From: a virus
Direction: 5' to 3' (one strand)
Virus genome (UHGV): UHGV-1660291
Length of the DNA stretch: 11,166 bases
Shown here in pieces: positions 3,943-9,707 of the stretch (position 1 is the first letter of the stretch; every line of letters begins with the position of its first letter). The translations under genes were made by a program, and so were the position numbers. Under the pieces are notes generated by a model. It saw nothing but the letters and a program-made list of their open reading frames with translations. It searched no databases and was not told the origin of the DNA.

Positions 3943-4365
3943 ATGTTCCTGAAAACCGAATCATTTGAACATAACGGTGTGACCGTCACGCTTTCTGAAC
4001 TGTCAGCCCTGCAGCGTATTGAGCATCTCGCCCTGATGAAACGGCAGGCAGAACAGGCGGAGTCAGACAGCAACCGGAAGTTTACTGTGGAAGACGCCAT
4101 CAGAACCGGCGCGTTTCTGGTGGCGATGTCCCTGTGGCATAACCATCCGCAGAAGACGCAGATGCCGTCCATGAATGAAGCCGTTAAACAGATTGAGCAG
4201 GAAGTGCTTACCACCTGGCCCACGGAGGCAATTTCTCATGCTGAAAACGTGGTGTACCGGCTGTCTGGTATGTATGAGTTTGTGGTGAATAATGCCCCTG
4301 AACAGACAGAGGACGCCGGGCCCGCAGAGCCTGTTTCTGCGGGAAAGTGTTCGACGGTGAGCTGA
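3943..4365 (+). CDS. G: Tail assembly chaperone gpG
   Basis: ATG 3943 preceded by GGAGAG at 3931-3936; 140 aa (MFLKTESFEHNGVTVTLSELSALQRIEHL...) recognised as lambda G-like; stop TGA 4363-4365. Confidence 0.93.
   Translation: MFLKTESFEHNGVTVTLSELSALQRIEHLALMKRQAEQAESDSNRKFTVEDAIRTGAFLVAMSLWHNHPQKTQMPSMNEAVKQIEQEVLTTWPTEAISHAENVVYRLSGMYEFVVNNAPEQTEDAGPAEPVSAGKCSTVS
4341..4347 (+). other. Programmed -1 ribosomal frameshift slippery heptamer G GGA AAG (G to GT)
   Basis: GGGAAAG at 4341-4347, with GGA and AAG in the G frame, lies 16 nt upstream of the G stop codon. The -1 frame is open from 4347 to 4781 and has no convincing ribosome-binding site of its own. Confidence 0.85.
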
Positions 4366-7335: not shown

Positions 7336-7661
7336 AAACCTTCCGCTGGAAAGTGAAACCCGGTATGGATGTGGCTTCGGCCCCTTCTGTAAGAAAGGTG
7401 CGCTTTGGTGATGGCTATTCCCAGCGAGCGCCTGCCGGGCTGAATGCCAACCTGAAAACGTACAGCGTGACGCTTTCTGTCTCCCGTGAGGAGGCCACGG
7501 TACTGGAGTCGTTTCTGGAAGAGCACGGGGGCTGGAAATCCTTTCTGTGGACGCCGCCTTATGAGTGGCGGCAGATAAAGGTGACCTGCGCAAAATGGTC
7601 GTCGCGGGTCAGTATGCTGCGTGTTGAGTTCAGCGCAGAGTTTGAACAGGTGGTGAACTGA
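7332..7661 (+). CDS. M: Tail tip protein gpM
   Basis: ATG 7332 in an ATGA overlap with the H stop; 109 aa (MKTFRWKVKPGMDVAS...) recognised as lambda M-like; stop TGA 7659-7661. Confidence 0.93.
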   Translation: MKTFRWKVKPGMDVASAPSVRKVRFGDGYSQRAPAGLNANLKTYSVTLSVSREEATVLESFLEEHGGWKSFLWTPPYEWRQIKVTCAKWSSRVSMLRVEFSAEFEQVVN

Positions 7662-8359
7662 TGCAGGATATCCGGCAGGAAACACTGAATGAATGCACCC
7701 GTGCGGAGCAGTCGGCCAGCGTGGTGCTCTGGGAAATCGATCTGACAGAGGTCGGTGGAGAACGTTATTTTTTCTGTAATGAGCAGAACGAAAAAGGTGA
7801 GCCGGTCACCTGGCAGGGGAGGCAGTATCAGGCGTATCCCATTCAGGGGAGCGGTTTTGAACTGAATGGCAAAGGCACCAGTACGCGCCCCACACTGACG
7901 GTTTCTAACCTGTACGGTATGGTCACCGGGATGGCGGAAGATCTGCAGAGTCTGGTCGGCGGAACGGTGGTCCGGCGTAAGGTTTACGCCCGTTTTCTGG
8001 ATGCGGTGAACTTCGTCAACGGAAACAGTGACGCCGATCCGGAGCAGGAGGTGATCAGCCGCTGGCGCATCGAGCAGTGCAGCGAACTGAGCGCGGTCAG
8101 TGCCTCCTTTGTGTTGTCCACACCGACGGAAACGGACGGTGCCGTTTTTCCGGGGCGCATCATGCTGGCCAACACCTGCACCTGGATCTACCGCGGCGAT
8201 GAGTGCGGTTATGATGGCCCGGCTGTCGCGGATGAATATGACCAGCCAACGTCCGATATCACGAAGGATAAATGCAGCAAATGCCTGAGCGGTTGTAAGT
8301 TCCGCAATAACGTCGGCAACTTTGGCGGCTTCCTTTCCATTAACAAACTTTCGCAGTAA
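7661..8359 (+). CDS. L: Tail tip protein gpL, with C-terminal cysteine cluster
   Basis: ATG 7661 shares its A with the M stop (TGATG); 232 aa (MQDIRQETLNECTRAEQSASVVLWEIDL...) recognised as lambda L-like. C-terminal cysteines in CTWIYRGDECGYDG and KDKCSKCLSGCKF. Stop TAA 8357-8359. Confidence 0.93.
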   Translation: MQDIRQETLNECTRAEQSASVVLWEIDLTEVGGERYFFCNEQNEKGEPVTWQGRQYQAYPIQGSGFELNGKGTSTRPTLTVSNLYGMVTGMAEDLQSLVGGTVVRRKVYARFLDAVNFVNGNSDADPEQEVISRWRIEQCSELSAVSASFVLSTPTETDGAVFPGRIMLANTCTWIYRGDECGYDGPAVADEYDQPTSDITKDKCSKCLSGCKFRNNVGNFGGFLSINKLSQ

Positions 8360-8364
8360 ATCCC

Positions 8365-9108
8365 ATGACACAGACAGAATCAGCGATTCTGGCGCACGCC
8401 CGGCGATGTGCGCCAGCGGAGTCGTGCGGCTTCGTGGTAAGCACGCCGGAGGGGGAAAGATATTTTCCCTGCGTGAATATCTCCGGTGAGCCGGAGGCGT
8501 ATTTCCGGATGGCTCCGGAGGACTGGCTGCAGGCAGAAATTCAGGGTGAGATTGTGGCGCTGGTCCACAGTCACCCCGGTGGTCTGCCCTGGCTGAGTGA
8601 GGCTGACCGGCGGCTGCAGGTGCAGAGTGATTTGCCGTGGTGGCTGGTCTGCCGGGGGACGATTCATAAGTTCCGCTGTGTGCCGCATCTCACCGGGCGG
8701 CGCTTTGAGCACGGGGTGACGGACTGTTACACGCTGTTCCGGGATGCTTACCATCTGGCGGGGATTGAGATGCCGGATTTTCATCGTGAGGATGACTGGT
8801 GGCGTCACGGTCAGAATCTCTATCTTGACAATATGGAGGCAACGGGTTTTTACCGTGTCGCACTGACAGAGGCACAACCGGGCGATGTGCTGCTGTGCTG
8901 TTTTGGTTCATCGGTGCCGAATCATGCCGCCATTTACTGTGGTGACGGCGAGCTGCTGCACCATATTCCTGAACAACTGAGCAAACGAGAGAGGTATACC
9001 GACAAATGGCAGCGACGCACACACTCCCTCTGGCGTCACCGGGCATGGCACGCATCTGCCTTTACGGGGATTTACAACGATTTGGCCGCCGCATCGATCT
9101 GCGTGTGA
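8365..9108 (+). CDS. K: Tail tip assembly protein gpK (JAB/MPN metallopeptidase plus NlpC/P60 domain); long form from ATG 8365, alternative internal start ATG 8509
   Basis: 247-codon ORF. JAMM motif visible: E19 in AESCGF (nt 8419-8421) and H68-S-H70-x7-S78-x2-D81 (nt 8566-8607). NlpC/P60-like Cys121 in GVTDCYTLF (8725-8727) and His187/His199. Lambda K is annotated from the internal Met in my memory (199 aa), but E19 lies upstream of that Met. Stop TGA 9106-9108. Confidence 0.8.
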   Translation: MTQTESAILAHARRCAPAESCGFVVSTPEGERYFPCVNISGEPEAYFRMAPEDWLQAEIQGEIVALVHSHPGGLPWLSEADRRLQVQSDLPWWLVCRGTIHKFRCVPHLTGRRFEHGVTDCYTLFRDAYHLAGIEMPDFHREDDWWRHGQNLYLDNMEATGFYRVALTEAQPGDVLLCCFGSSVPNHAAIYCGDGELLHHIPEQLSKRERYTDKWQRRTHSLWRHRAWHASAFTGIYNDLAAASICV

Positions 9109-9647
9109 AAACGGGGGCCGAAGCCATCCGGGCGCTGGTCATGCAGATCCCGGCGTTTCGTCAGAAGCTGAGCGACGGCTGGTATCAGGTACGCATTGCC
9201 GGGCGGGATACAGGTGAAACGGAATTATCAGCCCGTCTTAATGAACCGCTGGCAAATGGTGCTGTGATCCACATCGTGCCGCGTCTGGCAGGAGCCAAAA
9301 GTGGCGGTGTGTTTCAGGCTGTGCTGGGGGCGGCTGTTATGGCGGTTGCTATATGGATGCCGGGGGTAGGAATTATGGCGAGTAATCTGCTGTTTTCTCT
9401 CGGTGCCAGTATGACGCTTGGCGGTGTTGCACAGATGCTGGCCCCTAAACCCAAAACCCCCCGCACACAGACAACGGATAACGGCAAACAGAACACCTAT
9501 TTTTCTTCACTGGATAATATGGTTGCCCAGGGCAATGTCCTGCCCGTTCTGTACGGTGAAATGCGTGTGGGGTCACGTGTGGTTTCTCAGGAGATCAGCA
9601 CGGCAGACGAAGGGGACGGTGGTCAGGTTGTGGTGATTGGTCGCTGA
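9006..9647 (+). CDS. I: Tail tip assembly protein gpI (N-terminal ubiquitin-like beta-grasp domain ending in Gly-Gly, then a hydrophobic Gly/Ala-rich segment)
   Basis: ATG 9006 (MAATHTLPLASPGMARICLYGDLQRFGRRIDLRV...), 213 aa, overlaps the K 3' end by 103 nt in another frame; stop TGA 9645-9647. An alternative start is Met14 (ATG 9045). Recognised as lambda I-like. Confidence 0.88.
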   Translation: MAATHTLPLASPGMARICLYGDLQRFGRRIDLRVKTGAEAIRALVMQIPAFRQKLSDGWYQVRIAGRDTGETELSARLNEPLANGAVIHIVPRLAGAKSGGVFQAVLGAAVMAVAIWMPGVGIMASNLLFSLGASMTLGGVAQMLAPKPKTPRTQTTDNGKQNTYFSSLDNMVAQGNVLPVLYGEMRVGSRVVSQEISTADEGDGGQVVVIGR

Positions 9648-9665: not shown

Positions 9666-9687
9666 AAACCGCCTGCGGGCGGTTTTG
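9666..9687 (+). terminator. I/J intergenic hairpin with T-tract (terminator-like)
   Basis: AAACCGCC (9666-9673), loop TGCG (9674-9677), GGCGGTTT (9678-9685): 8-bp stem whose 3' arm runs into TTTT, 20 nt upstream of the J start. Confidence 0.4.
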
Positions 9688-9707
9688 TCGTTTATGGAGC
9701 GTGACGA

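What the first reader, a model, noticed from the sequence alone, without database searches (positions are those of the whole stretch)
8365..8607. K start codon: the complete JAB/MPN active site requires the long ORF from ATG 8365
In the long ORF the JAMM signature is complete: a glutamate in an E-x-C-G context (E19, AESCGFVV, nt 8419-8421), then H68-S-H70, S78 and D81 (HSHPGGLPWLSEAD, nt 8566-8607). As I remember the lambda annotation, K begins at the internal Met49 (ATG 8509, 199 aa), which would cut off E19 and the first part of the MPN fold. The frame is open from 8365, 5 nt after the L stop, so the 247-aa form is the biologically sensible product, although 8365 has no strong Shine-Dalgarno sequence and may depend on coupling to L.
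Basis: partly seen in the sequence, partly recalled or inferred. Interest (0 to 1): 0.55.

Follow-up and report, generated by a model that had tools for sequence, protein, structure and literature searches.

The report
Full-length phage tail assembly gene K

Summary
Window 8365-9108 (+) is a 247-codon ORF that starts 5 nt after the L stop. E19, H68-S-H70, S78 and D81 fit the JAMM motif E-Xn-H-S/T-H-X7-S-X2-D at the stated coordinates.

- The first 48 residues carry about half of the Prok-JAB Pfam score (51.5 bits for the long form, 22.8 bits for the short form, below the 25-bit cut-off).
- In a high-confidence AlphaFold2 model (pLDDT 97.3) these residues form a helix and two strands of the MPN-like domain.
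- Their substitutions are mostly synonymous (pN/pS 0.27).
- E19 is kept in 86 of 87 cluster representatives that are 33-59% identical to K. Met49 is Ile, Leu or Val in most relatives.

The new point is why lambda's K is short. J02459/NC_001416 lacks a G after position 14266, which puts the first 45 codons in another frame. Independently sequenced lambdas have the G. The deletion allele has 0 exact matches in IMG/VR, GTDB genomes and JGI metagenomes.

PGAP and recent phage annotations already call the 744-nt gene, and the JAB + NlpC/P60 architecture was published in 2006. The verdict is correct but already known, with low interest. The practical value is a flag on a stale reference annotation that is still copied.

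The parts
7661..8359 (+). Gene L (minor tail protein L), with its TAA stop at 8357-8359
   Evidence: ORF list. Pfam Phage_tail_L, E = 1e-100.
8360..8364 (+). 5-nt spacer ATCCC between the L stop and the K start, with no Shine-Dalgarno sequence
   Evidence: Sequence. Best anti-SD duplex +0.6 kcal/mol. TAAATCCCATG is the dominant junction in 53 of 82 related sequences (window, three phage records and IMG/VR loci).
8365..9108 (+). Gene K, full length: 247 codons plus a TGA stop, predicted mass 28.3 kDa
   Evidence: It is 95% identical to K of resequenced lambda PV340536. The same 744-nt gene is annotated in relatives.
8371..8676 (+). JAB/MPN (JAMM) metallopeptidase domain, residues 3-104
   Evidence: Pfam PF14464, 51.5 bits against a cut-off of 25, profile positions 3-112 of 114. 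AF2 model pLDDT 97.3. Foldseek matches PfJAMM1 5ld9/5lda, CSN5 and AMSH.
8419..8421 (+). Codon for E19, the JAMM glutamate, in the context A-E-S-C-G
   Evidence: E in 86 of 87 cluster representatives that are 33-59% identical to K. Invariant in 10 phage homologues. Aligns to E of N-E-A-C-G in solved structure 2kks.
8499..8499 (+). The G that is absent from the lambda reference J02459/NC_001416 (after lambda 14266); its absence there breaks the K frame
   Evidence: Alignment A1. ORF lists of the lambda reference.
8493..8497 (+). GGAGG inside the codons for E43-P44-E45-A46; SD-like, 11 nt before ATG 8509
   Evidence: The motif is kept in a Stx1a phage whose codon 49 is ATT, so it most likely reflects the amino-acid coding.
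8509..8511 (+). Internal Met49 codon, the position of the start annotated in the lambda reference
   Evidence: The column is I59/M12/L9/V5 in 87 representatives. It is Ile in large E. coli clusters.
8566..8607 (+). H68-S-H70 ... S78 ... D81, the zinc-binding part of the JAMM motif
   Evidence: H68, H70 and D81 are present in 87 of 87 representatives; S69 and S78 are S or T in 87 of 87.
8695..9036 (+). NlpC/P60 (C40) cysteine peptidase domain, residues 111-224, with C121 (8725-8727), H187 (8923-8925) and H199 (8959-8961)
   Evidence: Pfam PF00877, 49.5 bits against a cut-off of 23. C121, H187 and H199 are each present in 86 of 87 representatives. Foldseek matches MepS/Spr.
9006..9647 (+). Gene I (ubiquitin-like tail assembly protein I) as the longest ORF; it overlaps the 3' end of K by 103 nt, and its true start is uncertain
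   Evidence: ORF list. Pfam Lambda_tail_I matches residues 14-97. Relatives carry different annotated starts.

Best explanation
Window 8365-9108 is the intact gene K of a lambda-like prophage or phage. Its product is a 247-residue, non-virion tail-tip assembly factor made of two peptidase domains. The N-terminal domain is a JAB/MPN (JAMM) zinc metallopeptidase (E19, H68, H70, S78, D81). The C-terminal domain is an NlpC/P60 cysteine peptidase (C121, H187, H199).

Translation starts at ATG 8365. This start has no Shine-Dalgarno sequence and lies 5 nt after the L stop. It is therefore most likely served by ribosomes that have just terminated on L (translational coupling; inferred, not shown).

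The 199-residue K of the lambda reference is an artefact. J02459/NC_001416 lacks one G after position 14266, which throws the first 45 codons into another frame. The 1982 annotators were left with only the internal, SD-preceded ATG.

The substrate of K is not shown here. The published hypothesis (Iyer et al. 2006) is that K processes the ubiquitin-like protein I encoded just downstream.
For: Shown by tools:
1. Domain completeness. The long form scores 51.5 bits on Prok-JAB over profile positions 3-112 of 114. The 199-aa form scores 22.8 bits, below the 25-bit cut-off, and covers only profile positions 65-112.
2. Structure. An AF2 model built from an 87-sequence alignment has pLDDT 97.3 and pTM 0.91. 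Residues 1-48 form helix 3-15 and strands 21-27 and 30-36 of the N-terminal domain. The model matches solved JAMM enzymes: PfJAMM1 5ld9/5lda (TM 0.67-0.69 normalised by target length, rmsd 2.5-2.6 A over 107-109 columns), CSN5 and AMSH. It also matches the NlpC/P60 enzymes MepS/Spr.
3. Conservation. E19 is present in 86 of 87, G22 in 87 of 87, and H68, H70 and D81 in 87 of 87 cluster representatives that are 33-59% identical to K. In these relatives the glutamate lies a median of 20 residues from the predicted N-terminus. In 1,721 of 1,760 phage records the tblastn match covers at least 80% of the 247 aa, and in nearly all of the 60 sampled rows, down to 27% identity, it starts at residue 1-8.
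4. Coding constraint on codons 2-48. pN/pS is 0.27, and variable sites by codon position are 10/4/16 in 70 unique close relatives. Against a Stx1a phage there are 11 synonymous and 4 non-synonymous codon changes.
5. Met49 is not a conserved start. The column is I59/M12/L9/V5 in the representatives. It is Ile in E. coli clusters with thousands of members. GGAGG persists where codon 49 is ATT.
6. Tight L-K junction. In seven phages 28-53% identical at protein level, the annotated K start lies from 4 nt of overlap to 3 nt after the L stop. In mEp021 the reading frame is open from the L stop.
7. Lambda indel. Only J02459, NC_001416 and two records identical to them in this region lack the G. PV340536, LC730321, KT232076, DE3 and lambda imm21 were aligned and have it, and 20 further records give the 402-base match that implies it. 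The deletion-allele 25-mer has 0 exact matches in IMG/VR, GTDB genomes and JGI metagenomes.
8. Literature. TAPK is described as JAB + NlpC/P60 next to ubiquitin-like TAPI (PMC1779556). gpK is not found in virions by mass spectrometry (PMC10721106).
Against: There is no direct evidence (protein N-terminus, ribosome footprints) for initiation at 8365 in this element or in lambda.

ATG 8365 has no SD, whereas ATG 8509 has a good one at a long but usable spacing.

Several expert annotations still keep the short start even though the frame is open: DE3 and lambda imm21, the latter with an RBS feature. KT232076 uses another internal start.

Four 199-aa clusters of about 1,700-4,900 members each exist in the protein collection.

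Two non-reference lambda records, OR974322 and OR474059, share the deletion allele. I could not establish whether they are independent of the reference.
Confidence: 0.9

Rival explanations
1. Dual initiation. In the lambda/21/434 subgroup, which has ATG at codon 49 behind GGAGG, ribosomes also start internally. This would give a 199-aa NlpC/P60-only isoform alongside the full-length protein.
For: GGAGG lies 11 nt upstream of ATG 8509 with a duplex energy of -9.5 kcal/mol, comparable with bona fide starts in this window. Met49 is present in 75 of 82 close relatives. Some phages are reported to carry K versions with only the NlpC/P60 domain (PMC1779556).
Against: The Met49 column is I/L/V in 73 of 87 representatives. 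It is Ile in very large E. coli prophage clusters 85-91% identical to K. GGAGG is retained with ATT at codon 49, so it is explained by the E-P-E-A codons. The 199-aa product would carry a half MPN domain (residues 49-106) that lacks its first helix and two strands.
Confidence: 0.07
2. Met49 is the only real start, as in the lambda reference, and the upstream 48 codons are untranslated spacer.
For: SD strength favours 8509 over 8365. The historical annotation is repeated in DE3 and lambda imm21.
Against: The upstream codons are under purifying selection in the K frame. They are homologous to the N-terminal half of JAB domains across more than 1,700 phage records. They contain the near-invariant E19/C21/G22/N38. 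They also form core elements of a confidently predicted fold.
Confidence: 0.02
3. For lambda itself: the missing G in J02459 is real in the sequenced stock. K would then be made either as a truncated protein or by a programmed +1/-2 frameshift.
For: Two further records, OR974322 and OR474059, carry the same allele. Lambda does use programmed frameshifting elsewhere, at the G-T site GGGAAAG at 4341-4347 in this window.
Against: The five independently sequenced lambdas and derivatives I aligned all have the G, and 20 further records give the 402-base match that implies it. The deletion allele has 0 exact matches in three large collections, against at least 120 for the intact allele. Feiss et al. 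[quoted passage not shown] The GGGAAAG inside K (8453-8459) is out of phase for -1 slippage.
Confidence: 0.03

Closest known systems
Bacteriophage lambda gpK (tail tip assembly protein K), in its corrected 247-aa form (e.g. XSB40720.1 of PV340536)
   Same: 95% protein identity, the same length, the same L-K-I-J synteny and the same 5-nt L-K spacer.
   Different: About 5% amino-acid divergence. The window is a different lambdoid mosaic: its best phage match is 95% at DNA level and its best complete E. coli genome match is 97.5%. The RefSeq lambda protein NP_040598.1 is the 199-aa truncated version.
[quoted passage not shown]
   Same: The same two-domain architecture, and the same neighbourhood with ubiquitin-like TAPI and TAPJ.
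   Different: None found. This is a typical member.
Prokaryotic JAMM/MPN+ enzymes that act on ubiquitin-like proteins (PfJAMM1 5ld9/5lda; Haloferax desampylase NF041370)
   Same: The same fold and the full E-Xn-HSH-X7-S-X2-D motif.
   Different: Only 21-23% identity. K scores far below the desampylase equivalog cut-off (29.6 against 130 bits). K is fused to a second peptidase. Its substrate is unknown.
NlpC/P60 (C40) peptidases MepS/Spr
   Same: The fold and the Cys-His-His catalytic residues of the C-terminal domain.
   Different: K was not detected in virions by mass spectrometry and acts in tail assembly. Cell-wall hydrolysis is not established for it.

Membership tests
JAMM/MPN+ metallopeptidase (Pfam Prok-JAB PF14464) | Sequence motif E-Xn-H-S/T-H-X7-S-X2-D | tested here: met
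   E19, H68-S69-H70, seven residues, S78, two residues, D81. The motif definition is from PMC300881. The residues are invariant or nearly invariant in 87 representatives.
JAMM/MPN+ metallopeptidase (Pfam Prok-JAB PF14464) | Profile match above the curated cut-off, covering the whole domain | tested here: met
   51.5 bits against a cut-off of 25; residues 3-104 match profile positions 3-112 of 114. The 199-aa form fails, at 22.8 bits.
JAMM/MPN+ metallopeptidase (Pfam Prok-JAB PF14464) | MPN fold | tested here: met
   AF2 pLDDT 97.3. Foldseek probability 1.00 to PfJAMM1, CSN5, AMSH and 2kks.
JAMM/MPN+ metallopeptidase (Pfam Prok-JAB PF14464) | Zinc binding and (iso)peptidase activity | not testable with these tools
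   This needs biochemistry. I found no paper reporting it for gpK.
NlpC/P60 (C40) cysteine peptidase (PF00877) | Profile match above the cut-off, with a conserved catalytic Cys and His residues | tested here: met
   49.5 bits against a cut-off of 23, residues 111-224. C121, H187 and H199 are each present in 86 of 87 representatives. The fold matches MepS/Spr.
Lambda-type tail tip assembly protein K (TAPK) | Gene order L-K-I-J in a lambda-like tail module | tested here: met
   Pfam assignments run E, FI, FII, Z, U, V, G, H, M, L, K, I, J across the window.
Lambda-type tail tip assembly protein K (TAPK) | Start codon adjacent to the L stop, with the N-terminus aligned to those of homologues | tested here: met
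   The spacer here is 5 nt. In seven diverged phages the K start lies from a 4-nt overlap to 3 nt after the L stop. Homologues have a median of 20 residues before the E19 column.
Lambda-type tail tip assembly protein K (TAPK) | Required for tail assembly but absent from the virion | not testable with these tools
   Known for lambda from the literature (PMC10721106 and PMC12617516). Not tested for this element.

The most novel reading that the evidence does not exclude
In the lambda/21/434 subgroup only, the GGAGG-ATG at codon 49 is a working internal start. The phage would then make two K proteins: the full JAB + NlpC/P60 enzyme, and a 199-aa form carrying only a remnant of the JAB domain before an intact NlpC/P60 domain.
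Probability: 0.07. Interest if true: 0.3.

Novelty: already known. Interest (0 to 1): 0.15.

Why it matters
It matters mainly as a curation point. The lambda RefSeq record is among the most used phage references. It still encodes a K protein that lacks 48 residues, including the catalytic glutamate and part of the MPN fold.

That truncated protein is still in use:
- A 2020 review describes gpK as 199 residues with one peptidase domain (PMC7291167).
- A 2025 expression screen lists NP_040598.1 as gpK (PMC12236752).
- One PHROG family, phrog_7305, appears to consist of the orphan 76-aa N-terminal fragment.

Anyone who clones or models gpK, or tests the long-standing hypothesis that its JAB domain processes ubiquitin-like gpI, should use the 247-aa sequence. 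For this window itself nothing is unusual.

Tried and rejected
1. I looked for an explicit published statement of the 14266 G discrepancy. Full-text searches for '14266', J02459, 'sequencing error' and 'frameshift' found none. The nearest is Feiss et al. [quoted passage not shown] From memory only, a commercial supplier's notes on lambda DNA list a G insertion at 14266. I could not verify this with these tools, so it is a lead and not evidence.
2. Casjens and Hendrix 2015 and the lambda ribosome-profiling paper (Liu et al. 2013) are not held in the library. I therefore found no direct translation evidence.
3. The MutaMouse lambda-gt10 paper and the lambda interaction-map paper say nothing on K's start.
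4. Model coordinates are not exposed to scripts. I could not measure distances from E19 to the His/Asp zinc ligands and rely on motif and fold matches instead.
5. I considered GGGAAAG at 8453-8459 as a slippery site. It is rejected because it is out of phase for -1 slippage, and three copies in the window are not more than chance (40 of 200 shuffles reach three).
6. I considered that the open upstream frame alone proves coding. This is rejected because P is about 0.14 by chance. The case rests on homology and substitution pattern.

Full report
**What is in the window**

The 11.2-kb window is a lambda-type head-tail module. Pfam assigns, in order, major capsid E, FI, FII, Z, U, V, G, tape measure H, M, L, K, I and the start of J. 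The known G-T slippery heptamer GGGAAAG lies at 4341-4347.

The window is not lambda itself. The best phage record is 95% identical over the K region and the best complete E. coli genome is 97.5% identical. The module is very common: 4,416 of 5,426 complete E. coli genomes have a match, with a median of three places per genome.

**The observation**

- ORF 8365-9108 (+) encodes 247 aa.
- L ends with TAA at 8357-8359, so 5 nt (ATCCC) separate the two genes.
- Their spacing is that of the JAMM motif EXnHS/THX7SXXD (PMC300881).
- ATG 8365 has no Shine-Dalgarno sequence (best duplex +0.6 kcal/mol).
- ATG 8509 sits 11 nt after GGAGG (-9.5 kcal/mol).

**Are the first 48 codons coding?**

Five independent lines say yes.

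1. Profile coverage. The long protein matches Prok-JAB over profile positions 3-112 of 114 at 51.5 bits. The Met49 form keeps only positions 65-112 and drops to 22.8 bits, below the 25-bit cut-off. The 48 residues alone hit phage protein families at E = 3e-32 to 4e-22.

2. Homologue N-termini. tblastn finds 1,760 phage records, and 1,721 of them cover at least 80% of the 247 aa. In nearly all of the 60 sampled rows, down to 27% identity (HK97, T1-like, Webervirus), the match starts at residue 1-8. An exhaustive HMMER scan of 1.84 billion cluster representatives finds 2,779 relatives. The full-length ones at 35-60% identity align from query residues 1-15.

3. Residue conservation. In 87 such representatives, E19 is present in 86, G22 and N38 in 87, and H68, H70 and D81 in 87. 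The NlpC/P60 residues C121, H187 and H199 are each present in 86. The glutamate lies a median of 20 residues from the predicted N-terminus.

4. Substitution pattern. In 70 unique close relatives, codons 2-48 have pN/pS 0.27, with variable sites 10/4/16 by codon position. Against a Stx1a phage there are 11 synonymous and 4 non-synonymous codon changes.

5. Structure. An AlphaFold2 model from the 87-sequence alignment has pLDDT 97.3 and pTM 0.91. Residues 1-48 form helix 3-15 and strands 21-27 and 30-36 of the N-terminal domain. Foldseek matches that domain to PfJAMM1 with and without its ubiquitin-like substrate SAMP2 (5lda, 5ld9; TM 0.67-0.69 normalised by target length), and to CSN5 and AMSH. 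It matches the C-terminal domain to MepS/Spr. By sequence, the solved JAB protein 2kks aligns from residue 7, with N-E-A-C-G opposite A-E-S-C-G.

**Is Met49 a start?**

The column is Ile in 59, Met in 12, Leu in 9 and Val in 5 of 87 representatives. It is Ile in E. coli prophage clusters with thousands of members that are 85-91% identical to this protein.

In a Stx1a phage the sequence reads GAGCCGGAGGCGTATTTTCGTATT. GGAGG is kept there although codon 49 is ATT. The SD-like motif is therefore most simply a by-product of the E-P-E-A codons. Internal initiation in the lambda subgroup cannot be excluded, but nothing requires it.

**How ATG 8365 is used**

In seven phages whose K is 28-53% identical to this one, the annotated K start lies from a 4-nt overlap to 3 nt after the L stop: Mannheimia 535AP2, HK97, Vibrio pVa-4, Pseudomonas PP9W2, LL5 and FairDinkum. 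In mEp021 the frame is open from the L stop.

Among close relatives, TAAATCCCATG is the dominant junction. This step is inferred, not shown.

**Why lambda's K is short**

NC_001416 annotates K at 14276..14875, 199 aa, leaving 148 nt after L. In that record the codons MTQTESAILAHARRCAPAESCGFVV... are present from 14133 but in a different frame. They form a 76-aa ORF that runs into a stop.

The alignment shows a single difference. The reference reads CCGGAGGC-TATTTCCG where the window and other phages read CCGGAGGCGTATTTCCG. A G is missing after 14266.

- Of the 35 records with at least 99% identity to this lambda region, only J02459, NC_001416, OR474059 and OR974322 give a gap-free 401-base match.
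- Twenty-one records listed at 99.8% identity, and others below, give a 402-base match. They include lambda PV340536, LC730321 (48,503 bp), KT232076, DE3, lambda imm21, imm434 and h434 imm21, HK629 and HK630.
- The alignment confirms the extra G in the five of these that I aligned: PV340536, LC730321, KT232076, DE3 and lambda imm21.
- A 25-mer spanning the deletion allele has 0 exact matches in IMG/VR (2.9 million contigs), in one genome for each of 185,579 species, and in 241 million metagenome records.

[quoted passage not shown] They do not list them. The short K is thus an artefact of one base in the 1982 record, either a reading error or a private mutation. It is not evidence for a short protein.

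**State of annotation**

- PGAP calls the 744-nt gene in E. coli chromosomes, as 'C40 family peptidase'.
- PV340536 (lambda), phage 21, vB_EcoS-689R5 and a Stx1a phage also carry the 744-nt gene.
- Most close relatives in the protein collection are called at 247 aa, in clusters of up to 12,883 members.
- The short form persists by copying. DE3 and lambda imm21 (the latter with an RBS feature) keep it although their frame is open, and KT232076 uses another internal start.
- Four 199-aa clusters of about 1,700-4,900 members each exist.
- PHROG 7305 has a 76-position profile that matches residues 1-76, which is exactly the orphan fragment of the reference.
- Recent papers still describe or use the 199-aa gpK (PMC7291167; PMC12236752).

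**Function**

The JAB + NlpC/P60 architecture of K (TAPK) was described in 2006, together with its conserved position next to the ubiquitin-like protein I and J. The same paper proposed that the JAB domain cleaves I after the C-terminal glycine of its ubiquitin-like domain (PMC1779556). Lambda K had been listed among JAMM-motif proteins as early as 2003 (PMC300881).

Later structural work is compatible with that proposal but does not test it. gpK is not detected in virions by mass spectrometry. Only residues 135-223 of gpI are resolved in the tail tip lumen (PMC10721106). The role of K is still called unknown in 2025-2026 papers.

What this analysis adds is that both catalytic sites are almost universally conserved. 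That argues for real enzymatic roles for both domains.

**Verdict**

The thing described is the normal, already annotated, already published form of a very common phage gene. The only point worth carrying forward is the stale lambda reference annotation and its cause.

Noticed in passing
window 9006-9647 (alternative starts at 9045 and 9105): The start of gene I is annotated inconsistently among relatives. There are three versions: the lambda-reference style ATG, which overlaps K by 103 nt (213 aa here); the PGAP choice at Met14 (ATG 9045, 200 aa); and a GTG that overlaps the K stop (9105, 190 aa). The Pfam ubiquitin-like domain begins at residue 14 of the long form, so the GTG start would truncate it.
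   Followed up: partly
window 9666-9690: A G+C-rich hairpin (CCGCCTGCGGGCGG) followed by TTTTGTCGTTT lies between the I stop and the J start. The phage 21 record annotates a terminator at the equivalent place.
   Followed up: no
window 4341-4347 and 8453-8459: GGGAAAG occurs at the G-T junction, which is the known lambda -1 frameshift site. A second copy lies inside K codons 30-32. The second copy is out of phase for -1 slippage, and three copies in the window are not more than chance.
   Followed up: yes
L001 1134-1364 (lambda NC_001416 14133-14363): The lambda reference holds an unannotated 76-aa ORF, which is the frameshifted N-terminus of K. PHROG family 7305 (unknown function, 76 positions) matches K residues 1-76 and appears to be built from such fragments.
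   Followed up: partly
Protein collection hits P0060, P0066, P0073, P0075: Four clusters of 199-aa K proteins, each with about 1,700-4,900 members, start at Met49. I did not check whether their DNA has the open upstream frame (a gene-caller preference for the SD-preceded ATG) or a real frameshift.
   Followed up: no
Protein collection hits P0008, P0027, P0037, P0039, P0044, P0056; three 972-nt ORFs in IMG/VR loci: Some relatives are called as L-K fusion proteins (Phage_tail_L + JAB + NlpC/P60). Others are K-I fusions (P0015, P0026, P0098). These may be frameshifts in degenerate prophages or assembly errors.
   Followed up: no
L009 (OR974322) and OR474059: Two lambda records other than J02459/NC_001416 carry the one-base deletion allele and are identical to the reference over the 401 bases compared. 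One is described as an isolate from chicken cloacal swabs. I could not tell whether they are independent assemblies.
   Followed up: no
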